DNA of 64,000 nucleotides, from the NCBI GenBank assembly GCA_000004985.1, contig GG738854.1; one strand, written 5' to 3'. The notes under the pieces were generated by a model. It did no database searches. It had not been told where the DNA came from and worked only from the letters and a program-made list of their open reading frames with translations. The position numbers and the translations under genes are program-made. This document shows, piece after piece, positions 11,713-58,302 of the stretch; the first letter of the stretch is position 1, and each line of letters begins with the position of its first letter. This DNA is from Naegleria gruberi (Eukaryota).

Positions 11713-12028
11713 TTCTTCTTTTCAAAAAACTATTTAGCAATCTTTTTCATATTAAATCGCTATTGCCTTTTTATGAGATATCAACAAGCAGTCTATTTAT
11801 TACTTGATTTTGTAAAGTTTTTTCTTTTCCTATCATCTTTCTGCTCAAAAAAAATCCACTTTAACTCTTGTTAATTCCATTGGTGAGTAGTGTCGATAGA
11901 TCTGTAAGCGTTTTGGCTCATTAACCTTTTCGTGAGTATCCCCGCCTTAGTTACAATCGCTTTTCCATCGAACCAGTAATCTCCAGTCTGCACTTGAAGA
12001 ACCAAAGTCACGTTGATCTCAAAAAAAA

Positions 12029-14281
12029 ATGTTTAGTAACTGCCATCATCATGATGATGCTGAACGTGTAGTAATTATATTGGACGATCATGACAAATTT
12101 ATGGAACAATTATTGAATAGCAAATATAAACAAGAACGAAATTTATCATGCTACAAACAAATATTAAAATATTTAACTAATACGAGAGGTTTAATATTAA
12201 AGTATTATGAATTACCTGTTATATTACGAAGAGATCGGAGATTCATCACTGAAATTGCACAAACTTTTGAATTTTACCAACAATTACCTGAAGAATTTAA
12301 ATCCGATAAACAAGTAATGCTAAATTGTTTTAAAAAGAAAGTATTTAATGGAAGTGATATTAAGAGTGGATATATTCCCTCTAATTTAATGAATGATAGG
12401 AAATTTATATTGGAATTAATTGAAGGAAATCCAACATGTCTCTATTTAGTACCGAAAGAAAGAGAATTCGTGTTGGCAGCAATGAAACACGATATTATAT
12501 ATTTGGGATTTCTCCCAGGAAGTGAAAAGAAGAATGAATCATACATGTGGGAATTGTTTTTGAAAAATTGGGAAAATTTAAGATTTGCAAGTGGTGAATT
12601 ACTAAATAATCCATCATTTGCTATAAAAGTAAGAAAGCATGATACCAATACTTTCAACTATTATTGTGGACGGCCACATTTGGCGGTTCATGCAAGGGAT
12701 AAATTTCGAAATAATAGAGAATATGTGCTTTTTGCTATTTTACATGGAAAAGCTGATTTTACAATGATAAAAAAGGTATTTCAAGCGGATTTGGAAATTA
12801 AAATGGCAAATAATATTAAAACTGATGCCTCCTTATGGAAATTAAAGGAAGAATGGGCAAATGACAAGGAAATGATTTTGAAATATGTCAAACATAATTC
12901 AAATATATTGAAATTTATTAATTTGGAATTACTACAGGATTATGAATTTAATATTAAATTAATTTACAAAAATATTGAAAGTATTCAATTTATTAATGAA
13001 TGCAATACTAATTTTAAACAATTATTTACACAATCAGATAAAACTGAATTAATTTCTAGATATTTAAGCAACAAAAAATTTAACATTAATTCCAAAATTA
13101 TAAATCCAACTAATATTAGAGCATTTGGTTCCAAAATTAATTATATACATTTTATAGAGGAATATTTAAATGAAAACGATTTAATTTATATAACAAGTAA
13201 TATTGATGGACAAGCATGTTACGGTTTGTTAAACGTAATTTCCAATAAGAAAATTTTCAATGAATGCTTACAATTATGGAAAATAACAGTTAAAAAGCAT
13301 TATTCATGTTATGAATTATTTAATATAAAATATACCAAACAAGATATTATTGAGATAATTTCATCCATGCATGAATCTCCTTTTCCATTCCTGGCACACA
13401 TTGATAGAAATGTATTTAGCTCTGAGAGTGAAGTTCTTCTCATTGCAATTCAAACCCATTTCAAGTGCTTTGAATTGGCAAGTAAAGAACTGAAATCTGA
13501 CTTGAATTTTATTAGAAAGTCAGTCAATTTAAATAGAAATATTATTAAAGTAATAGATTTGCAAATTGTACAAGATAATTTGGATTTATTGATTATTTAT
13601 ATAAATTATAAATTAAAAATCAATACCATGTATGGATATCAAAATAGCGCTCATGCATTAAATCCATTAATTAACATATTAGCAAAACATTTACAAAATG
13701 AGGATACAGTTTTACAATTAGTAGAAATACCCCAATTTGTAAATTTATTTTATGGCCATATAGATATTAATTTAAGATCAAGTGAGGAATTCTGTTTAAA
13801 AATATTAAAAACAGATTTGAATAATGCCACTAAAATTCCAAATTTAATTAAATATAGAAATTTCATAATTGAATTTCTAAAAGAGGGAAAATCCATTACA
13901 TTCATTCCTAAAATATTCGAACAGGATGAGGAATTTTTACATTTATTTTTTAAAAACTGGAATCGTACGGAATACCTTCCAATATTACCAGCGGATGAAA
14001 TTTTTATTGGTATTCTAATTAAGGAATTGAAAATTAACCCATCCATATATAGAAATTTTAATAATAGTGATCCGTTGAAACATAATTGGGATATATTATT
14101 GAATGTTGCCAGAGATGTAAATAGCTGTTTAGTTTTTCCCACCACAATATGGCAAGATGAGAATTTTAAATTGGAACTTGTGAAGAGAGGAATTTTTCCA
14201 CCTTCCTTTTTGAAACATTTTAATAGCATTTTGAACGATATGGATTTGATTGTAGAAAATGGTTTTTACTTGATTCAATAA
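12029..14281 (+). CDS. Asn/Ile-rich repeat protein, hypothetical. Degenerate repeats of about 35 aa resemble DUF4116-type repeats.
   Basis: A 750-codon ORF with ATG after aaaaaaaaa. Recurring blocks: DKQVMLNCFKK, EREFVLAAMKHD, NREYVLFAILHG, DKEMILKYVKHNSNILKFI. Confidence 0.45.
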   Translation: MFSNCHHHDDAERVVIILDDHDKFMEQLLNSKYKQERNLSCYKQILKYLTNTRGLILKYYELPVILRRDRRFITEIAQTFEFYQQLPEEFKSDKQVMLNCFKKKVFNGSDIKSGYIPSNLMNDRKFILELIEGNPTCLYLVPKEREFVLAAMKHDIIYLGFLPGSEKKNESYMWELFLKNWENLRFASGELLNNPSFAIKVRKHDTNTFNYYCGRPHLAVHARDKFRNNREYVLFAILHGKADFTMIKKVFQADLEIKMANNIKTDASLWKLKEEWANDKEMILKYVKHNSNILKFINLELLQDYEFNIKLIYKNIESIQFINECNTNFKQLFTQSDKTELISRYLSNKKFNINSKIINPTNIRAFGSKINYIHFIEEYLNENDLIYITSNIDGQACYGLLNVISNKKIFNECLQLWKITVKKHYSCYELFNIKYTKQDIIEIISSMHESPFPFLAHIDRNVFSSESEVLLIAIQTHFKCFELASKELKSDLNFIRKSVNLNRNIIKVIDLQIVQDNLDLLIIYINYKLKINTMYGYQNSAHALNPLINILAKHLQNEDTVLQLVEIPQFVNLFYGHIDINLRSSEEFCLKILKTDLNNATKIPNLIKYRNFIIEFLKEGKSITFIPKIFEQDEEFLHLFFKNWNRTEYLPILPADEIFIGILIKELKINPSIYRNFNNSDPLKHNWDILLNVARDVNSCLVFPTTIWQDENFKLELVKRGIFPPSFLKHFNSILNDMDLIVENGFYLIQ

Positions 14282-33600: not shown

Positions 33601-36600
33601 TCAATGTAACGTGCCAGTATCACTGTTGGAATTTTGGTAATTATTAAAATTATGTAATGATTGGAGAGGAATCAATCGGGGGAGATCATCGATTTTTTGA
33701 CATTGTGATTGTAATTCTTCCAATAAATCAATAATTTCAATAAATTCAGGTCTTTGTGAGGAATCCTGAGCCCAACATCTTTCCATGATTTGAACATATG
33801 ATTCTAAAAATCCAATAATTTCACTTTTTCCAAGATTTTCGATATGTTTCTTTGTAAAATTGTGTTCAATCCACTCATCAATTTGTTTTTCACTGAATGA
33901 TTTTGCATGCAACAGTTCTGGCCTGTGTCCTTTTGCAACTCTCATCAATATTTGGAAAACAGTTGTAGAGTTATCAATTTCATTTGAAAATGGTAATATT
34001 TCATATAATAGCTCCCACATTATTACTCCAAATGAATAAACATCCACTTTTGTGCTTTTACCTTTGTGATTATCTGAAAGTAATTCCTATAAAACAAAGT
34101 TCAACAAATCTATTTTCAATAGATACTTACAGGTGCCTATTGTATTTGTTAATGAATTCACAATAAAATACTTCCAAACTTACCATATAGAGTAAAGTTC
34201 CAACATTTGAGGTCATGGTTGCTGAATTGTTTGAAACAATTTTGCTCAATCCAAAATCTCCAACTTTTGCGTTCATAATCTTGTCCAATAAAATGTTCCC
34301 TGGTTTCAAATCTCTGTAATATTTTTGTTTAGGATAGAGTAAAACTCATAACATACCTGTGAATGATTTTGTGAGGTTTGATAGAATGTAAATATATCAA
34401 TCCTTTGGTGATATCAATCAAAATTTTAAGCTTGGTCTCAAATCTCATAATTTCTCTTCCTATTCTTGAGTTATAAATTGCCTTTTCTAGACTTCCATGT
34501 TCCATATATTCAACAACCATATATTTTCCATTGGTTGTGAGCGAAACTCCATAACAACTGACAATACAGGGATGTCTCAATGAGCTCATTAACATTGCTT
34601 CATTCTCAAACTCCTCATCATTTGAATCAGTTTTCAATTGTTTGATGGCAACATCAGTTCGATTCCACTTGGCATGGTAGATCATGCCCATTGCTCCTTC
34701 ACCAACTCTTTTTAGAATATTAATTTCTGATATTGGAATAATGTATTGTTGTCGTTTTTTTTGTGAATTAAGGATTTCCTTAGTATTAGAAGAATCTATT
34801 CCACTGTTAATACTATTTGAAGATATTAGTGGGGTGAATTCACTCTCAAATATAAATTCATTATCTGTAAACTTCCTTTCAATTTCCTTTTCAGCACGTT
34901 CTTGCTTCCTCAATTTCAACAATTTTCTTGTTATGAATATTCCTGCGTATAAAACTGCTCCAAATATAATTAAGAGTGAAATGAAACCTAATATTGCAGA
35001 GGTTAAAATAATTGCTATTGGAGAATATTCACAAATATAACCATTATCAAGCTTGTTTAAAATATAACTGTTTGGGCATGGAAGTATTTTCACTTTGACA
35101 ATTTTCTCAATGTCTGGAGTTACTATGATTGATAGAGAAAATTCTTTGGATATTTGACTTGGAAATATTTGCAAGCTCACTAATATTGTACGATTGTCAA
35201 ATAGATTATTTTGAGAAACAGTTCCATCTTCAATATTCGTTGGTCGAATAATCAACATATTCGGTTCCATCAATGATGAGGCAGTTTGATTGTAAAGATC
35301 TTTCACTAATACATTCATCTTGAATGATTCTCCAGGGTATATTTCAAGTTCATTGCCATTTTCTGTATTTCTTTCAAATTGAACTTCAACAGTTTGCAAA
35401 GGTGTCGCCACATTATTGCCATAGCATAGAGCATTATTTCCAACTATTATTTCGCCATTAACGGTCAACTGAGAGTAAATGCACCCTCCAGCATAAGCTG
35501 CAAGATTATTTTCACAAATTATATTCTTAATATAGGGAGTTACCGTGTTTATCCACATGGCCCCACCATTTTTTGCCGAGTTGTCATTAAAGGTAGAGTC
35601 AGTAAAACGAATTGAGCCAAATAATTTAGTTGTTTCAACATAAATTGCTCCACCTAAATCAGCAGTGTTTTTGGTAAATTGTGAATTTCCAATGTCTAAA
35701 TCTGTTCCATAAAGATAGAGTGTAGATCCTTTGCTTCCACCTGTATTTTCAATAAATTTACAATTTGTAATGGAAAGTGAATAGGACAACATTGTTTGAT
35801 CAAAAAATTCTAATAAAGCAGTGCCTGTTGTGAGTCTATTTTCAATAAACAAGCTATTGCGTATAAGTATTGCGATAATGCTAATAGAAGGATTATCTGT
35901 AAAGGATAAAAACCTTCCCCTATTATTTGAAACTAGACAGTTATTAATTGTTAAGGAGTCAACCATTTGTAATGAAAGCAACGCATTAGAGGCTGTATTA
36001 TTTTTAAAGGAACTGTTTGAAATTAGTATTCCAGAAATGCCAATCATTTGAAAGAGCATGTAATATTCAGTGTTTTCAATAGTTACTCCATTCAATTCAA
36101 TATTATCCAATGATATGAATAAAGCATTTGATAATACAGTAGAATTGATAATTGAAACTCTATTTCCAAGATTGAATTTCGAGATGGTCAGTAAGGAGCT
36201 TAATTTTGAGGTCCAAATAGAATTACCAATAGTAAATGTCTCAAAATTATCCATGTGAAAAACTCCATTAATTCTGCAATTATTAAATAGAACTGTTTTA
36301 GAATTTTTCAAATTAATAATTACTTCCATATTAGTGTTGAAAACGAATAGGTTTAATACTCCCACAATACTGAAATAATAATAAAAATTACAATCAATAA
36401 TCTCCAATTTTCGAATTTCCGAATGCATGACGACTGCATCTCTTGTTGTGCAATTTAACAATTTGAAATGTTCAATTCCATTATATAGTAAGAATTCCCC
36501 ACCAATGAATCCAAACTCTATTGTAAATGCATCAATAATTGCGTATGCCTGTAAATTGCCACGAGTAGTGAACAATTGCTTGTCCTTTCCTTTCCATATC

Positions 36601-37040
36601 ATTTCGAATCGATTTGCGTATTTGGAAAAATCGAAATTTGTTTCATAGCTTCGCATAAGTCCATTAATTACAATCACCATTGTGAAATTATCCAATTTTT
36701 TACCTTGATTAATTATTTCTGCCAATTCATTGTTTGCTGCTTTTACAATTTGACTCGGAGAGGAACATGGTTGATGCTCATCCCTACACGTTGCATTCAA
36801 ATCATCAACATTAGGAAATTCAGAATCTAAATAATAAATAGCTGAATATGATGATGAATTAATTGTATTGTTGGCCATTACATATTGATGATGCTCTTGT
36901 TCTTGTGGTTGGAGTACTACTACTAATTCATTATTAGCTAATATCGACTCGGACTTTGTTATTATCATCATTATCATCATCATAATAATTAAAAGCCTAA
37001 TAAATCTAAGAACCTCCGAAGAGGTGGTTATCTTGTGCAT
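33601..37040 (-). CDS. Receptor-like TKL kinase with a Pmp-like beta-helix ectodomain. Exons: 37040..34357, 34313..34184, probable 6-nt micro-exon 34136..34131, and 34086..33601.
   Basis: Signal peptide MHKITTSSEVLRFIRLLIIMMMIMMIITKS. Ectodomain repeats: GGAIYVET, GGAMWINT, GGCIYSQ. TM: IAIILTSAILGFISLLIIFGAVLYAGIFI. Kinase: VGEGAMGMIYHAKW...VAIK, HR|DLKPGNILLD (intron 34314..34356, 43 nt), DFGLSKI, GTLLYM|AP|ELL, DVYSFGVIMWE. Confidence 0.8.
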
Positions 37041-37328
37041 TTTGTTTTTCAATTTTTGAATTTGATTATCCGTCGGAAGCCTTCATATTCTCTTTCTCTC
37101 TCTAGCTGTGTATTAAGATGGATTCAATAGATTGTCTGATAATTTCTTGAAGTTATCTTAAATTGTAATAGAATTTGTGCTTATTGAAATTTTTATTTTT
37201 TAATTTTATTTGATGATTCGGAAAGTTTTTTTAAAAAAAACTTGCTGCTTTAATTATTATTGAATCCTTAATTAGCCTTGAAAACTTTGAAAGTTCTCCT
37301 GTCAGAGCATGTCAACCCATCAAAAAAA

Positions 37329-37914: not shown

Positions 37915-39213
37915 ATGAATAATAATCAAAGATTTGATGTTTTGATTCTCTCCACCATTTTTTCATTTCTTCCCGCCAAAAATTATTTACTGAAAATTTG
38001 TCTTGTTTGTCGAGATTGGAATTTTTCAAATTCTTGTAAAATTAATAATCATGAGAATAATAACGATCAGAATTATCCTCTTCCGATGGTTGCACTTGAT
38101 TTATCCAACCGTAAGATTTTTGATGAAAAATTAGTAAAATTACTTGATGAGCAATTGGATCGGTATGATTGGAGAAATTTGAGAATATTAAATTTGGAGA
38201 AGAATCTTATTGAACGTATTGGTTGTTTGATGGAGACAGGGAGATCGTTGCAATTGAGTAATTTGAGAGTTTTAAATTTGAATGAAAATCAAATTGATGA
38301 GGAGTGTAGTTTGTTGTGTTGTGGTGTGGAAAATTTTATCAATTTGAAGGAATTATATTTGAGAACGAATTTTATTAGAAATATTGTTGTGAGAACGCAA
38401 TTTCCTGCTTTGGAAACGTTGGATTTGAGTGGTAATTGTATTGGAAATCAGGGAGTTGTTTCTTTATTGAAGGATGGTCTTGAAAATTTCCCAAACTTGC
38501 GAAAATTAGTGCTTTCTAATGTGGATATGAAGAGTTTGGATCCATTGCTCATGAATTGCCACAATTGCCCAAAATTGAAATGTTTAGATTTTAGTAATAA
38601 TTTTATTTATAACTCACAAACGATTCATTATAAGCATTTTAATTTTCCATTATTGGATGAGCTATATTGCTCAGCAGTTAATTCTACAGCTCGTTTACAA
38701 GAATTAATTGTGGAAAAATCACTTGATTCCTCCCTCACAACACTTGATTTATCACAATGTTATGTTGGAGAAGTTTTTTTGAAAGCTCTTTCTTTGGGAG
38801 AATTCAAGAAATTGACTAAACTCTTACTATCTAATAATGAAATTGGAAATGAGGAAGTTCTGCTATTGGGAAAACTTGACATGCCGAATCTAGTTCATCT
38901 CAATCTTGATGATAACCTAATTGGATTGGAAGGCGCTAACATCATTTCCAATTTTACTAATTTTCCTCAATTAGAATTTCTTTCCTGTAGAAAATATCCC
39001 GCAACAAAACACAAAACATTTGAAAGTTATTCATTGAATAATTTTCTTGAGGATTGCAGGGAGGAATTGGGAGAGGAATTAGAGGAGGAAGAAGAAGATT
39101 GTGAAGAGGATTATTATGGAGGTTTACGTAATTCGAAAGGAAAGGAAATTAGTTTTGTATCGTCGTTTGTTAGCTTTACTTGGACAAAAAGTGATTATGT
39201 CTATGTCTATTAA
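37915..39213 (+). CDS. F-box-like / RNI-type leucine-rich-repeat protein.
   Basis: N-terminal FDVLILSTIFSFLPAKNYLLKICLVCRDWNF. LRRs: LRILNLEKNLIERIG, LRVLNLNENQIDEE, LETLDLSGNCIGNQGVVSL, LRKLVLSNVDMKSL. Acidic C-terminal tail. Confidence 0.75.
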   Translation: MNNNQRFDVLILSTIFSFLPAKNYLLKICLVCRDWNFSNSCKINNHENNNDQNYPLPMVALDLSNRKIFDEKLVKLLDEQLDRYDWRNLRILNLEKNLIERIGCLMETGRSLQLSNLRVLNLNENQIDEECSLLCCGVENFINLKELYLRTNFIRNIVVRTQFPALETLDLSGNCIGNQGVVSLLKDGLENFPNLRKLVLSNVDMKSLDPLLMNCHNCPKLKCLDFSNNFIYNSQTIHYKHFNFPLLDELYCSAVNSTARLQELIVEKSLDSSLTTLDLSQCYVGEVFLKALSLGEFKKLTKLLLSNNEIGNEEVLLLGKLDMPNLVHLNLDDNLIGLEGANIISNFTNFPQLEFLSCRKYPATKHKTFESYSLNNFLEDCREELGEELEEEEEDCEEDYYGGLRNSKGKEISFVSSFVSFTWTKSDYVYVY

Positions 39214-39290
39214 TGGTTTAGAATAGCAACTGACTGCTATTTTGGTTTGTTTATTCCATCAAATAAACCGACATTTGACTTTAAAAAAAA

Positions 39291-39895
39291 TGAGACAAGA
39301 CAAGATAACATTCAACCCAGATAATTATTGTCTCATCTATGAAGAGGTAATGACATGCCAAGAAACAAGAAATATCTTTAAAGAATTCTTGAAGGAAAAC
39401 ATGGCGGAAGAACCACTTCTTTATTTGGACGAATGTGAAAAGTATAAAGTGGAATATGCCAAGTTGAAAGAGAAATTTAACGGTTTATCTTTGATGGTTA
39501 AAAGAAGTAGTAGTGTAGGAAATGTTTCTGATTTGGGAAACGAGACAAGTGGCAAGGAATGGGATAAAAATCAGTTGACTAAATTATTTGTGAATTTAAA
39601 AGGAATTATTGATGAGTTTATTGTGGAAGAGGCAACTAAGGAGTTGAATTTGTCGGTTAGGAAGTGGACGATAATGGAATGGCAGATAATAGAAGCAATG
39701 ATGAACGGATTCGAACAGGATTCGTCCAATTTTGAACTTTCGAATAATTTGTATAGGAAACTGGATATTAATGTGCTGTTTGAAAAGGTAGATTTAGTGG
39801 TTATGATAGATTTGAAAATGGATCAATTTCCTCGATTTATTCGTTCAAATTTAGCTCGAAAATTTCTATTAGAAAAGGGAGAACATTTCACATGA
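39291..39895 (+). CDS. RGS-domain protein, copy 1. The ORF ends at a TGA that falls at a conserved Arg position when compared with the paralogue at about 56.7-58.3 kb. Homologous sequence continues in frame, and across a 41-nt GTATGT...TTTTAG intron, out to 40296.
   Basis: RGS block: YEEVMTCQETRNIFKEFLKENMAEEPLLYLDECEKYKVEY. Downstream of the TGA the same frame reads TVAIDISKGFKVDLRFKPKDLKDKEINDNHIYFG. That aligns with paralogue RSIAIDVSRGFHVDIRFLPKDLSKNFIYDKDIFFG. The terminal block ELNFRKCLEENCVKYPNRSWYKEWLALKQNPTQF* aligns with LKELVEENLKAHPQKSWYRDYLSLFHNKSL*. Confidence 0.6.
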
Positions 39896-40339
39896 ACTGT
39901 GGCAATCGATATTTCGAAAGGTTTCAAAGTTGATTTGAGATTTAAACCAAAAGATTTGAAAGATAAGGAAATTAATGACAATCACATTTATTTTGGTATG
40001 TTAAATTGCAAAATTTTCATTGTTAACCATTTTTAGGATTAACCATCGTTAACATTCCAATATTTTCGTCATTCTTTTACAAACAAATGGCGATGAAAAG
40101 GACGAAAAGTATAAGGAAATCAATGATGAAAGAATTGGATCGATTAACAGATTATGGACGAAAGAAAATGGATACTAGTTCATTTGTGGATGAATTGAAT
40201 TTTAGAAAGTGTTTGGAAGAAAATTGTGTGAAATATCCGAATCGATCATGGTATAAGGAGTGGCTGGCTCTAAAACAAAATCCAACTCAATTTTAAAGAA
40301 TTCCAATTTACAGAAAACTTAACATTTTGAAGTGTTATT

Positions 40340-43300
40340 TTAATTCATAAGAATGGAAGAACACTTATTGAGCTTGTCACAAATTTCTGCAAATGAAGGT
40401 CTTTCAACGTCCTTGTCCCAACATTTTGTCATTATTTCACACAACTCTTTCACAACAAGGGCAAGCTTCATCTCTGAATTACGAGAAGATCCAAAAATTC
40501 CTCCCTTCTCATTTTCCATCAAAAAGGAATTGACATATTCCTTCAATAAAGGATCCAATTGTTGATATCTTCTTGAAGATGAACTAATGTGATCACTGCC
40601 AGTACCTTGGAAGGAGAAATTCTTCTTGATTCTAAATGGAATTATTGGTCTCAATCCATTCACAATCTCTGTTGTAATTGAAATCATGTTAAAGTTAGGC
40701 AAGGTAATAGAATCAATTTGCTCAATATCAATGTTTGATTTCACGAGAGGAGAGTCATTTCTAAGTGGTTCCTTTTCCAATTCCACATCATCAATATTAC
40801 TATCTTCATCCAAATTAATTGGTTCGTAAGGTTTCACATTAATAAGATTCTTGTGCTTGACCATAAAATTCTTCATGGCTTCAAAACTTTCGGGACTGTA
40901 GGCACGTTCTTCAAAGAGCAATTCCCACATGATAATACCAAATGAGTAACTGTCACACTTTTCTGAATAGTCCTGACCTAAAATGAGCTCTGGAGGCATG
41001 TAAACTGGTGTGCCGATGGCTGATGTGAGTACACTTGCAGAGTCTTGAGTAAATTCTCTTCCTAATCCAAAATCACAAATCTTGGCAACATTATTTTCAG
41101 AGATGAGAATATTTTCAGGTTTGAGATCTCTGTGAATCAATGGTGGATCTAAACTATGCAAATATTTCATACCATACGCAACATCTAACAAGTAATTGAG
41201 CTTTGTTGCCAGGTTGAGTGGGGTCTTTTTCTTTTTCGAGTCGTGAATCTTCTTTCTCAATGTACCTCCACTCAAATATTCAATGACAATGAACCGATCA
41301 CTTGGTGTAATTGCAATTCCATAGAAAGTAACAATATTTGGGAATCTGAGAGTACTGAGAATATAAGCTTCCTTTTCAAAAGTAGAGTTGATTGTGTCTG
41401 TTTCTGCTTGATTGTCTTCATCATATTGAGTAATGTCAATATTAATTCTCTTGACAGCTACAGTGTTATTCATCCATTTAGCTAAAAATATTACTGATTC
41501 ACCACCTTGGCCAATTCTTTCAACAATTTGCAGGTCTTCAGGTTTGATAATCCAACTCTTATCTTGATTGAAGGAGCTATTTCCTGCTGTATCATCGTGC
41601 AAACTGTGTTTGGAAGAAATAAGTTGATATTGGAGTAATCTCTTGTGTAAATCTTCTTCTGCTTGTTCTCTCTTCTTTAATTCTTTGAGTTTCTTTTTGA
41701 AGAAGTACAAACATAATGTGGTTAATAAAATGATAAAGGTCAAACCAAGGGCAACAATAACACCGAGTGAAATGAGTAATGCATTTTGAACTGCTGAATT
41801 GAAAATACATGCCTGATCATCTACACTGTAATCAAAACTGAAAGGACAATTTGGTTCAAGGTTGACTGGGAAGTAAAATTGTTGAATAACATTCTTACAT
41901 TTAAAGTAAAGAATTAAGGTTTGATTGAGTTGTCCTTTCACTTGTACGTTACTGAAAATAGCTGTATCATTTGAGAAGGTTGTAGAAACGTGATTCTTGT
42001 AGTCTTCTGTGTTGTTAATATTAGTTGTGAAAACCAAATCAATATCTGCATTCTTGATGCTTTCCATTCTTTCATTGAACAAGTCAAACGAATCCAAGGT
42101 TATTTTCACAAATTGACCTGCATATAAATTAAAACCAGTGTACTTTTTCAAGAGAAGAGACTTGAATATACTAAGAGGAAAATCGTACGGAGTATCCTTT
42201 GGTTCCCATCCATTACTAGAAAGAGCAAAATACTTTGGATCAGAGGCATAATTGTCTCCATAAAGTTCAGCATAATTATCGTCAAAAAAAGCAGTCTTGA
42301 ATTGGCTGGCAATACGCATACTGGTTGTTCCTACGAGAAATACAGCACCTCCAGAGTTTTCTGCTCTATTGTGAAGGAAATTAATATTGCTAAATTGGAA
42401 TTTTGAATTTGGATAATCAATGTTATACAAGTACATTGCTCCACCATTGTCTGCCTTGTTATAGCTCAGAGTGATATTAGAAACTGTAGTAGAAACAGAT
42501 GAAGGAGTGAAGAGAATTGCACCTCCCATTCCTTCTTTCACTGGATTGTGGACAATTCTATTGTACTGAAATAAGGAATCTTGGATATTCAAATTAGTTA
42601 AACCATAGGCAAATACAGCACCTCCTCCTGGAGCTTGCTCAGAGTAGGCCTCTTCAGGTTTGTAAATAATTACATTTTGACTAAATTTAGAACTTCTCAC
42701 ATCCAATAAATCTCCTCTCGACACGTAAATTGCAGAACCACGAATACTGGCAACATTACCTTCAAAAGAGGAATCCTTCAAAATGAGCGAACTCCTTCTC
42801 TCTCCATAAATACCGCCAGCTCTTCCTTGTCGTGCTAGTCCATAGTTGAAGCTACTTCTCTCCACAAATGAGTATGTACTTGATTTGAGATAGAGAGCAC
42901 CTCCATATCCATCACAGGTACTGTTAAATAGAGTTGAATCGTTCAGGAAAAATTTTCCCTTCTCAATAAAAATAGCTCCTCCATCGTACTTGGAATAACA
43001 TTTAGAGAATGTGGAATAGGTAATACTTGAATAAGGAATATCCAAATACAAACATCCACCAGAATCTTGACTTGTTGCTGTTTCGAATTTTGAAGTTGTA
43101 ATTGATACAGATCCACTCTCAGAAGTGACATAGATAAAACCACCAAATGAAGAGAGGGCAGTATTGTAACCATCAGAAAATGTGGAGCGTACCAATGTGA
43201 AAACTCTATCAGTAACTCGTTCGCTTTGATCTGAAATGTAGATTGATCCTCCATGTCTCAAAGCAGTATTTCCCTTAAAATTACAACGTAAAACACTCAA

Positions 43301-45126: not shown

Positions 45127-46206
45127 TTAATGCTTGTCTGTGATGAGATAGGATAATTGGAGAGCTTCGTTCTCTGTTAAAATTCCATCACCATCCAAAT
45201 CGTAAGGTGAGAGAACTCCCTTGCAAATGTGGTAATGTGTCTCCACTTCAGAGACTTGTATTTTACCTTCCACTTTCAATTGTTCAATTGATTTTCTGAC
45301 TCTCTTTTTCCATTCTTCCAATTCATGCAAATCTTCAATATTAGGAATGCTTAGCATTTGGTATTGATTCATTTTGGAGAAACCAGTTTCTGTTTTCTCA
45401 TGTCTGAACTTTTCCAAATCTGCTAAAAAATCCTTCTTCACCATTGATATGGGTGGAGATTCTACATTATCAATATAATTGCTCAATTTTGGAATTACAT
45501 CCTTCTTCCACTGATCAACTGACTTGTTCATTACTTCTTCGTATAATTGTTTGAAAATCCAAGCTTTGATATTTTGTCGAACAAGGTATTGAGGGTGAAT
45601 TAATAAATCAAAAACAGTTTCCAAATCCAACTTGTTGAGATAAACTGCTGCATAGGCAACACAAGCTCTATTACTCAGAAGTGAGTCCTTTGTTTCTATA
45701 TTTATGAGATTTCTCAAGAGTGGTTTAATTTCCTTATCTATCACAACAGTTTGACATCCTACACAAGCACTTAATTTCAAGGCATAATTTGGTGTATCAA
45801 TTGAACTGTTTGGCAATTTAAGGGCTCTTTTGATCATATCTGCTCTCATTGTTTCCGAAAGAATAACAAACGGATTCATCAGTAAATTACAAAGAGATTG
45901 GAAAGGATAAAATTCATTATCAGAAGATTCTGGCAATTTTCTAGTTCCTCTCAAATCAGCAGATATAAACCCGTGATCTATTATTTGCTTGAAAATATCC
46001 TCATGGTCTTGTAACGTTTCCTTCGTTAATCCTCTCCTCAACTTTTGCATATTATCAACATCTCTTGCCCTCAAAAATCCCATAACACTCTCCTCACAAC
46101 CACTTCCAAGATCCGACAAGTTTGCTCCCGAAGAAAACATTGATAAGGAATCACTCACCGACGATGATGACGTTAAGTGTTCGCTGTTATTGTTATTGTT
46201 GCTCAT
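45127..46206 (-). CDS. Hypothetical protein with a C-terminal EF-hand.
   Basis: Canonical EF loop DLDGDGILTENE near the C-terminus. Poly-N N-terminus. ATG at 46206. Confidence 0.6.
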   Translation of the reverse strand: MSNNNNNSEHLTSSSSVSDSLSMFSSGANLSDLGSGCEESVMGFLRARDVDNMQKLRRGLTKETLQDHEDIFKQIIDHGFISADLRGTRKLPESSDNEFYPFQSLCNLLMNPFVILSETMRADMIKRALKLPNSSIDTPNYALKLSACVGCQTVVIDKEIKPLLRNLINIETKDSLLSNRACVAYAAVYLNKLDLETVFDLLIHPQYLVRQNIKAWIFKQLYEEVMNKSVDQWKKDVIPKLSNYIDNVESPPISMVKKDFLADLEKFRHEKTETGFSKMNQYQMLSIPNIEDLHELEEWKKRVRKSIEQLKVEGKIQVSEVETHYHICKGVLSPYDLDGDGILTENEALQLSYLITDKH

Positions 46207-56707: not shown

Positions 56708-58302
56708 GTTAAAAACGACGTACCGAAACATCACCAACTATCATTAATCAAGGAATCAATAACAGCAATGGGGAATTAGTTTTCAATAATGGACGAAACA
56801 GACACTTTACTGCCAATAATTACAAAGTTCTCTATGAAGAGTTGATGAACAACCCAAAAGGAAGAGAAATCTTTCAGAAATATCTGAAAAATGAAGCATG
56901 TAGCGAAGAGCCAATTCTTTTCCTTAATGAAATGGATGAATTACGAGTCTAATATAACAAGATTAATAATTCGAATGAAATTTCATTGAAATTATGGAAG
57001 AAATATTTGGAGAAATTGTTTCGTATGGTTGAGAAATTCATCAGAGAGAAGAGTAATACTGAATTAAATCTTCAAGAAGCTCAACAGGAAAAATTATTGA
57101 GGAAAATTGATGAAGAAATTGCACCGCAATTTTCAAGAATATTTCTTTGTAATAATGGAGGAAAGAAAGTTTCGTCTCCTTCCTCGCCCTCTTCGCCAAC
57201 AAGTTCAAAAAGCTCCAAGTCAACCGAAAGCTATGAATCTTTCAGTAACCAATCTGTTGAATCAATAATAGAACAAGAATTGCAGAGCTATCTCAATATT
57301 GTCGATCCAGATGTATTATTTAATGAAATTGTCATATCAGTGAATGTTGATTTAAAGCTGGATCAATTTCCACGATTTTCCAGAAGTAAATTTCTCCTTG
57401 ATTTCCTTAACAAGCAAGGTGAAGCTTTCACCAGATCCATAGCCATCGATGTGTCCAGAGGATTTCACGTGGACATTCGATTTCTCCCAAAAGATTTATC
57501 CAAAAACTTTATCTACGACAAGGACATTTTCTTTGGATTTAGTTTAATTGAAGATTCACCAGATTGGCAAGTCATTCCTTGCTCTGCCATGTCAAACCAA
57601 GCTCAACTCTACCACTCCAACACATCCTACATATTTGGAAATAATGCAACTGGTATGAAACTCTACAAGATGGTCACAATTCTGCCCTACAAACTGGAAG
57701 ATGTCTTTTCAGCATTTTGTTTCATTCAAGGTGAAGACACTGGAGATCGATTGACTGAAAATCGAATCATTGGATCAAATGCTCCCAAACAGGCCATGTC
57801 CATGACTGGAGTGGATGAGAAGACTAATCCACTTGCCATTCGATATGTCACTTCATCATTGAAATTGTTACTTCCTGGACTAAAGGAAAGAGAATTTCCA
57901 AGAAGTTTAACTTGTGTCTATGATTGTGGATTGGATGCTTATATTAATGTTGGACACACGAGTCGTTATTCATTTCATGATGTGTCGAAAGAGAGAGTGG
58001 AGATGGATATGTTCTTTGTAAATATCATGTATCGAATAGGAGATTCGACAAGATTCGTATATGTTATTTACAGTGATGCACATACGCCCAAGGTATTGGA
58101 TTCGATGTTTGCAAAGGCTCATTGGAAACAACGTTGTGTGAGATTGGAACAAACATTCTTTCAATTATTACAAACTCACCAAACAAGTGAACTTTCAGAT
58201 AATTTTAAACTAAAAGAACTAGTTGAAGAAAACCTGAAAGCACATCCTCAAAAATCATGGTACAGAGATTATCTGAGTTTGTTTCATAATAAATCTCTCT
58301 AA
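56708..58302 (+). CDS. RGS-domain protein, copy 2, larger paralogue. There is an in-frame TAA at 56950-56952 at a conserved Glu position, and no in-frame ATG upstream of the RGS block. Possibly a pseudogene, or the 5' exon structure is unresolved.
   Basis: Frame-C translation ...NNYKVLYEELMNNPKGREIFQKYLKNEACSEEPILFLNEMDELRV*YNKINN aligns with copy 1 ...DNYCLIYEEVMTCQETRNIFKEFLKENMAEEPLLYLDECEKYKVEYAKLKE. Specifically GTC TAA TAT AAC AAG aligns with GTG GAA TAT GCC AAG. Downstream, 438 codons are open to 58302. Confidence 0.55.

What the first reader, a model, noticed from the sequence alone, without database searches (positions are those of the whole stretch)
39291..40296. RGS paralogue 1 is interrupted by an in-frame TGA at a conserved Arg and has lost about 250 aa of the middle region
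After GEHFT-TGA the same frame continues with TVAIDISKGFKVDLRFKPKDLKDKEINDNHIYFG, then a GTATGT...TTTTAG intron, then a C-terminal block. Both segments are clearly homologous to the larger paralogue at 56.7-58.3 kb. The stop replaces the paralogue's Arg codon. That makes this either a truncated RGS-only gene with a relic 3' region, a pseudogene, or a case of stop-codon readthrough.
Basis: seen in the sequence. Interest (0 to 1): 0.55.

Follow-up and report, generated by a model that had tools for sequence, protein, structure and literature searches.

The report
Broken RGS gene copy in Naegleria
One copy of a two-domain signalling gene in the amoeba Naegleria gruberi carries a premature stop codon and a 555-base deletion that an intact environmental version lacks, so this is ordinary gene decay and not a recoded stop codon.

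Summary
The window comes from the 665-kb scaffold of the Naegleria gruberi NEG-M reference. An RGS-domain ORF starts at ATG 39290 and ends at TGA 39893-39895 (codon 202). In 11 of 11 relatives that position is Arg. The same frame continues for 33 conserved codons, crosses a 41-nt GTATGT...TTTTAG intron (39996-40036) and reaches the family's C-terminal block (TAA 40294-40296).

A 4.2-kb metagenome contig (L001) covers the same locus at 98-99.5% identity. It has AGA where the window has TGA. It also holds 555 bp (185 codons) that are missing between window 40048 and 40049. A structure prediction for a paralogue shows that this segment encodes the whole beta-sheet core of a START-like lipid-binding fold. 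Pfam does not detect this domain.

A second NEG-M scaffold (43.7 kb, co-linear) carries a copy whose gene model also ends at ...GEHFT but keeps the START part. So the stop is not a sequencing error, and it came before the deletion.

Most likely this is a decaying allele: an RGS-only ORF followed by a relic 3' region. I found no SECIS element, no favourable readthrough context and no plausible intron that would skip the stop.

The 'larger paralogue' used for comparison is also disrupted, by an in-frame TAA at 56950 and the lack of a usable start codon. Interest is low.

The parts
39290..39895 (+). RGS-only ORF: ATG, 201 codons, then TGA. The reference annotates only codons 38-201 (EFC47518 / NAEGRDRAFT_47142, 164 aa).
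   Evidence: translation and coordinates. P0006 matches the window exactly and lies on the 665,159-bp scaffold.
39338..39853 (+). RGS domain, residues 17-188. It is complete upstream of the stop.
   Evidence: Pfam PF00615, 33.9 bits against a cutoff of 23.9, profile positions 2-113 of 117.
39893..39895 (+). Premature TGA at the family's invariant Arg. The intact allele has AGA, so this is a single A-to-T change at 39893.
   Evidence: window T versus L001 A. (Arg in 11 of 11 relatives).
39896..39995 (+). Relic end of exon 1: the conserved linker TVAIDISKGFKVDLRFKPKDL...IYFG, still in frame.
39996..40036 (+). 41-nt phase-1 intron, GTATGT...TTTTAG. It is retained in L001 without any base difference. 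Removing it restores the conserved IYFG|LT junction.
   Evidence: One search shows a neighbouring gene's short intron with the same GTATGT donor and a CAG acceptor.
40037..40296 (+). Relic exon 2: GLTI, then the deletion junction, then the C-terminal helices and the NRSWYKEWL motif, then TAA at 40294-40296.
40048..40049 (+). Junction of the 555-bp (185-codon) in-frame deletion. The missing segment is L001 1509-2063. There is no microhomology and no flanking repeat.
   Evidence: the deletion covers residues 241-425 of the intact protein, equivalent to P0004 207-379, which holds all the beta-strands of the START-like fold.
56713..58302 (+). Paralogue 2, the comparison copy. It is also disrupted: TAA at 56950-56952 inside the RGS domain and no in-frame ATG upstream. 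The reference model P0010 covers only 57025-58302.

Best explanation
This is a decaying copy of a heterolobosean two-domain gene: an N-terminal RGS domain, a conserved linker and a C-terminal START-like domain.

An A-to-T change turned the invariant Arg codon AGA into TGA just after the RGS domain. Translation now ends after 201 residues, and everything downstream is released from selection. Later, on this haplotype only, a 555-bp deletion in exon 2 removed the whole beta-sheet core of the START-like domain.

What remains is an RGS-only ORF followed by a non-functional relic. The relic happens to stay in frame. The locus is most likely null or hypomorphic and is tolerated because N. gruberi has intact paralogues (P0004, P0011).

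Shown: both lesions, the intact allele, the domain content, and the presence of the stop in the reference annotation of two copies.

Inferred: the order of events, the TGA in the second copy (only its protein model was seen), and the loss of function.
For: 1. The window is the N. gruberi NEG-M 665-kb scaffold. P0006, P0010, P0017, P0019 and P0020 match window ORFs exactly.
2. Contig L001 is the same locus, with the same LRR gene upstream and the same kinase-like gene downstream, at 98.2-99.5% DNA identity. It has AGA instead of TGA and 555 extra bp that encode conserved family sequence. L002 is an independent assembly of the same run and confirms the extra segment.
3. Arg is invariant in 11 of 11 relatives from N. 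gruberi, N. fowleri, N. lovaniensis, Willaertia and metagenomes.
4. The second NEG-M copy, on a 43,759-bp scaffold, is co-linear: its neighbour gene pairs with the window gene at 45127-46206. It is annotated as a 202-aa protein ending ...GEHFT, followed by a separate 230-aa protein that contains the segment deleted here. So the stop lies on two diverged backgrounds and the deletion on one.
5. The deleted segment corresponds to P0004 residues 207-379, which hold every strand of a START fold. The AlphaFold model has mean pLDDT 71, with most of the C-terminal domain at about 80-94. Foldseek matches STARD10 and CERT START at E about 4e-09 and target TM about 0.7.
6. The RGS domain is complete upstream of the stop.
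Against: - The RGS ORF is intact in all three alleles, and the reference annotates it, so a functional RGS-only protein cannot be excluded.
- Apart from the nonsense change and the deletion, the region after the stop differs from L001 by only 2 synonymous changes, so there is little general decay. Both lesions may be recent.
- The deletion is in frame. That has a 1 in 3 chance of happening by accident, but it is also what a readthrough product would require.
- The haplotig DNA could not be retrieved, so its stop codon is inferred from the gene model.
- No expression data were available.
Confidence: 0.82

Rival explanations
1. Gene fission under selection. The TGA allele is a functional variant that splits RGS-START into a stand-alone RGS protein and, on the other haplotype, a separately expressed START-like protein. 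Paralogue 2 independently keeps only the START-like half.
For: - The stop occurs on two backgrounds that differ at 6 of 201 residues.
- The haplotig keeps an open START-like ORF, annotated as its own gene (P0008).
- Paralogue 2 is the reciprocal fragment.
- Small RGS-only proteins of about 200 aa are functional GAPs in animals (R4 subfamily; my own knowledge).
Against: - No expression or selection evidence is available.
- Window versus L001 has 3 nonsynonymous changes, 2 synonymous changes and a codon indel in the RGS ORF. The neighbouring kinase-like gene has 1 nonsynonymous and 9 synonymous. That hints at relaxed rather than purifying selection, but the numbers are too small for a test.
- In the window copy the START part is destroyed.
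- The most conserved block of the family, the linker right after the Arg, is lost from the RGS product.
Confidence: 0.1
2. Programmed recoding of the TGA, by readthrough or selenocysteine, gives a longer protein.
For: - The frame stays open from the TGA to the family's natural TAA, through a correctly placed intron and across an in-frame deletion.
- N. gruberi has been reported to have selenocysteine machinery (my own knowledge; not checked here).
Against: - The stop replaces an invariant Arg, not Cys.
- Rfam found no SECIS or any other family in 39000-41000 even at E up to 1.
- The 3' UTR can be at most about 40 nt, because the convergent gene's ORF ends at 40340.
- The context is TGA-A, not the leaky TGA-CTAG type (which contexts are leaky is my own knowledge).
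- The window's long ORFs (up to 1385 aa) use the standard code.
- The readthrough product would lack the START core.
- The intact allele simply encodes Arg.
Confidence: 0.03
3. Sequencing or assembly artefact. The true NEG-M sequence has AGA and no deletion.
For: These are single-base and single-junction events in a draft assembly. An almost identical intact sequence exists in another dataset.
Against: - A second, independently assembled and diverged NEG-M copy ends at the same residue.
- The deletion junction lies in unique sequence, with no repeats that could collapse an assembly.
- Flanking sequence is co-linear on both sides.
Confidence: 0.04

Closest known systems
Unitary or polymorphic pseudogenes (loss-of-function alleles that segregate alongside an intact allele)
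   Same: There is a disabling nonsense mutation at an invariant residue, and a later deletion in the released 3' part. An intact allele exists in another sample. Synteny and the intron are preserved, so this is not a processed copy.
   Different: The 5' ORF still encodes a complete domain and is annotated as a gene. Loss of function is inferred, not shown.
Small RGS-only proteins (animal R4 subfamily, such as RGS2 and RGS4)
   Same: The surviving 201-aa product would be little more than an RGS domain (Pfam PF00615).
   Different: It arises here by truncation of a two-domain protein. No GAP activity or expression data exist. Sequence similarity to animal RGS proteins is only at the Pfam-domain level.
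START / StAR-related lipid-transfer domain proteins (STARD10, CERT, STARD4)
   Same: The family's C-terminal domain is predicted to adopt the helix-grip START fold (Foldseek E about 4e-09, target TM 0.66-0.78).
   Different: There is no sequence-level match to Pfam START or to any solved START protein. The domain is fused to RGS, an architecture I found no paper describing. In the window copy the fold's core is deleted.
Programmed UGA readthrough or selenoprotein genes
   Same: An in-frame TGA is followed by conserved, in-frame coding sequence.
   Different: No SECIS, no leaky context and an Arg rather than Cys homologue position. The downstream domain is destroyed, and the allele without the stop encodes Arg.

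Membership tests
RGS domain proteins (Pfam PF00615) | Match to the RGS profile above the gathering threshold | tested here: met
   33.9 bits against 23.9, residues 17-188, all upstream of the TGA.
Heterolobosean RGS + START-like family (P0002, P0004, P0011-P0016, L001) | Conserved linker block DLKMDQFPRF...GE.FTR.IAIDISKGF.VDLRFKPKDL...IYFG | tested here: met
   The block is present and in frame, but its invariant Arg is replaced by TGA.
Heterolobosean RGS + START-like family (P0002, P0004, P0011-P0016, L001) | Complete C-terminal START-like domain of about 170-195 core residues | tested here: not met
   A total of 185 residues, holding all the beta-strands, are absent from the window copy.
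Heterolobosean RGS + START-like family (P0002, P0004, P0011-P0016, L001) | C-terminal helices with the P.RSWY.EW motif | tested here: met
START lipid-transfer domain | Sequence match to a START profile or to solved START proteins | tested here: not met
   no Pfam START hit at E up to 10; a family profile searched against PDB sequences gave no START hit.
START lipid-transfer domain | Helix-grip fold: N-terminal helix, 9-stranded sheet, long C-terminal helix | tested here: met
   tested on paralogue P0004 and not on the window copy. Top hits were STARD10, CERT and StAR, with probability 1.00.
START lipid-transfer domain | Lipid binding in the cavity | not testable with these tools
   This needs biochemistry.
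Pseudogene (unprocessed) | Disabling lesions relative to an intact orthologue or allele, with synteny and intron retained | tested here: met
Pseudogene (unprocessed) | No functional product (no expression or no selection) | not testable with these tools
   No RNA-seq or proteomics was accessible. The substitution counts are too few to test.
Selenoprotein gene | SECIS element in the 3' UTR and a UGA aligned with Cys or Sec in homologues | tested here: not met
   no Rfam hit in 39000-41000; the column is Arg in 11 of 11 relatives.
Programmed stop-codon readthrough | Leaky stop context and a conserved, functional extension | tested here: not met
   the context is TGA-A; the extension lacks the domain core. 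Translation past the stop itself was not testable.

The most novel reading that the evidence does not exclude
The premature stop may be a maintained variant that splits an RGS-START signalling gene into separately used RGS-only and START-only genes. It lies on two diverged NEG-M haplotypes, and one of them keeps an open START-like ORF. The neighbouring paralogue 2 has been reduced independently to the reciprocal START-only half. On this reading the window would be catching domain fission, or subfunctionalisation by domain loss, in progress.
Probability: 0.08. Interest if true: 0.45.

Novelty: new member of a known kind. Interest (0 to 1): 0.2.

Why it matters
The main value is for annotation. 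At least four N. gruberi reference gene models are fragments of RGS-START-type genes and are not complete proteins. They are NAEGRDRAFT_47142, NAEGRDRAFT_76266, NAEGRDRAFT_54590 and the 425-aa model at 57025-58302.

The locus also gives a natural comparison between loss-of-function and intact alleles for one member of the family.

The by-product is more interesting than the stop itself. Heterolobosea have a family that fuses an RGS domain to a START-like, presumably lipid-binding, domain that Pfam does not detect. That hints at lipid-linked control of G-protein signalling. It is a lead, not a finding.

Tried and rejected
- **Stop-codon reassignment.** Rejected. The window holds standard-code ORFs of up to 1385 aa.
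- **An intron that skips the TGA.** I enumerated every in-frame GT...AG pair that spans it. None has the local GTATGT or GTAAGT donor. All would remove the most conserved block of the family.
- **SECIS or another RNA element.** Rfam at E up to 1 over 39000-41000 found nothing.
- **Deletion by repeat slippage or assembly collapse.** No direct repeat brackets the 555 bp, and the junction has no microhomology.
- **Retrieving the DNA of the second NEG-M copy.** Exact-product look-ups for P0001, P0008, the 201-aa ORF and the 69-aa relic ORF all returned nothing on record.
- **More alleles in JGI metagenomes.** None were found.
- **Literature.** I found no paper for PRJEB11402, for the locus tags, or for RGS plus START in Naegleria.
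- **Sequence-level START membership.** Pfam and a PDB profile search were both negative.
- **An intron to rescue the missing start of paralogue 2.** By hand, I found no GT...AG pair of the length class needed to shift the frame. This was not checked with a script.

Full report
**Source of the window**

The sequence is about 33% GC and gene-dense. It has long standard-code ORFs and short GTATGT...YAG introns. Several window ORFs match N. gruberi strain NEG-M proteins exactly. All of them lie on a 665,159-bp scaffold.

**Checking the observation**

It encodes 201 residues and ends at TGA 39893-39895.
- Pfam places a complete RGS domain at residues 17-188 (33.9 bits; cutoff 23.9).
- After the TGA the frame continues as TVAIDISKGFKVDLRFKPKDLKDKEINDNHIYFG.
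- A 41-nt phase-1 intron (39996-40036, GTATGT...TTTTAG) follows. Exon 2 (40037-40296) ends in TAA.
- BLASTP against the 56.7-58.3 kb paralogue aligns straight through the stop (E 2e-32), with FT-X-TVAID opposite FT-R-SIAID. The C-terminal block aligns separately (E 3e-06).
- In a 12-sequence family alignment the stop column is Arg in all 11 other sequences.

**An intact allele**

A protein search returned N. gruberi hits and an ENA metagenome protein, P0003. P0003 is 99% identical to the window's C-terminal block but carries about 150 additional residues ahead of it.

Its contig, L001 (4186 bp, run ERR1078381), is the same locus. It has the same LRR gene upstream and the same kinase-like gene downstream, at 98.2-99.5% DNA identity. 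Base-level comparison shows two things:

1. L001 has AGA where the window has TGA. This is a single T/A difference at 39893.
2. L001 has 555 bp (1509-2063, 185 codons) between the bases that are adjacent in the window at 40048 and 40049.

The junction has no microhomology, and no repeat brackets the segment. A Logan assembly of the same run (L002) confirms the segment. The 555 bp encode family-conserved sequence (AEDTPDW...TR..), so the difference is a deletion in the window lineage and not an insertion in L001.

**What was lost**

Pfam sees nothing in the C-terminal half of any family member. A family profile finds no solved START protein by sequence.

An AlphaFold model of the intact paralogue P0004 has mean pLDDT 71, with most of the C-terminal domain at about 80-94. 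It shows a helix, a nine-strand sheet and a long helix. Foldseek matches STARD10, CERT, StAR and STARD4/5 START domains at E about 4e-09 to 6e-08 and target TM 0.66-0.78.

The deletion corresponds to P0004 residues 207-379, which hold every strand of that fold. The Arg-to-stop site, equivalent to P0004 R169, lies in the conserved linker just after the RGS helices.

**The second copy in the same strain**

- Cluster look-ups show that the window's gene is annotated as EFC47518 / NAEGRDRAFT_47142. That model is 164 aa, starts at the internal Met38 and ends at the TGA.
- A 43,759-bp NEG-M scaffold carries EFC36068 / NAEGRDRAFT_76266. It is 202 aa, 97% identical, and also ends ...GEHFT.
- The next gene model on that scaffold, judged by its consecutive protein accession, is EFC36067 / NAEGRDRAFT_54590. 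It is 230 aa and contains the segment deleted in the window.
- The window gene at 45127-46206 also has a counterpart more than 90% identical on that scaffold, NAEGRDRAFT_76267.

The small scaffold is therefore a co-linear second copy, most likely the other haplotype. Naegleria is described as mainly a heterozygous diploid (PMC9928731).

The stop is thus present on two backgrounds that differ at 6 of 201 residues, while the deletion is on one. That rules out a simple base-calling error and puts the nonsense change before the deletion. One caveat applies. I saw only the protein models of the second copy, so its stop codon is inferred.

**Alternatives tested**

- Code reassignment is excluded by the long standard-code ORFs.
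- No SECIS or other Rfam family occurs in 39000-41000 at E up to 1. The 3' UTR can be at most about 40 nt before the convergent gene's ORF ends at 40340.
- The stop context is TGA-A.
- No candidate intron with a credible donor can skip the stop without removing the family's most conserved block.
- Readthrough of this copy would yield an RGS domain with a tail that cannot form the START fold.

**Selection**

Window versus L001 differs as follows:

| Region | Nonsynonymous | Synonymous | Other |
|---|---|---|---|
| RGS ORF, before the stop | 3 | 2 | one codon indel |
| RGS gene, after the stop | 0 | 2 | nonsense change; 185-codon deletion |
| Neighbouring kinase-like gene | 1 | 9 | none |
| Neighbouring LRR gene | 4 | 7 | none |

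They hint at relaxed constraint on the RGS gene but are too few for a test. Whether the 201-aa RGS-only product is made and used remains open. The TGA lies 100 nt upstream of the exon junction, so the mRNA could be an NMD substrate. That is inference only.

**Comparison with known kinds**

This is an unprocessed, apparently polymorphic, loss-of-function allele of a multi-copy family. N. gruberi keeps intact members (P0004, 462 aa; P0011, 621 aa). Orthologous-type proteins occur in N. fowleri, N. lovaniensis and Willaertia magna.

It belongs to the RGS family by Pfam. It fails the START-like part of its own family's architecture because that part is deleted.

The family's RGS + START-like architecture appears not to be described. 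No paper in the searched library holds Naegleria, RGS domain and START domain together. This is a side observation.

**Paralogue 2**

It has an in-frame TAA at 56950-56952 inside the RGS domain. Its frame is open only from 56713, with no ATG. The only upstream ATG (56645) is in another frame and stops at 56779. The reference model P0010 (425 aa, 57025-58302) begins after the TAA. The window therefore holds two reciprocal fragments: RGS-only and START-only.

**Verdict**

The feature is real, and it is ordinary gene decay. Interest is low (0.2). The most novel reading not excluded is maintained domain fission, at a probability of about 0.08.

Noticed in passing
window 56713-58302 (+): The 'larger paralogue' is itself disrupted. 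It has an in-frame TAA at 56950-56952 inside the RGS domain. It has no in-frame ATG upstream: ATG 56645 is in another frame and stops at 56779. The reference model (P0010, 425 aa) starts at 57025, after the TAA. It is the reciprocal START-only fragment of paralogue 1.
   Followed up: partly
P0004, P0011-P0016, L001 747-2311; window 57435-58302: Heterolobosea (N. gruberi, N. fowleri, N. lovaniensis, Willaertia magna) share a family that fuses RGS to a C-terminal domain invisible to Pfam and to PDB sequence profiles. AlphaFold plus Foldseek predict that domain to be a START lipid-transfer fold. I found no paper describing this architecture.
   Followed up: partly
window about 38-47 kb versus the 43,759-bp NEG-M scaffold (NAEGRDRAFT_76266, 54590, 76267): The reference assembly holds a second, co-linear copy of this region, probably the other haplotype. 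It was seen only through protein clusters. Its START-part model (P0008) lacks 5 residues (ATKFS) that are present in L001.
   Followed up: partly
window 39213-39260 versus L001 598-715: The intergenic region upstream of the RGS gene differs from the environmental allele by indels: 49 bp and 34 bp are absent from the window, and 12 bp are extra in the window. The flanking coding DNA is 98-99% identical.
   Followed up: no
window 34292-34347 (- strand): The 907-aa ORF at 34329-37052 appears to stop in the kinase catalytic loop (...IIHRYVMSFTLS*). This is just an unspliced GTATGT...TTACAG intron of about 50 nt, and DLKPGN follows it. It is an ordinary intron. It also shows that this donor consensus and short intron length are typical here.
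   Followed up: yes
window 12001-14000: This is the lowest-GC stretch of the window (0.258 against about 0.33-0.35 elsewhere). It coincides with a 750-aa ORF at 12029-14281.
   Followed up: no
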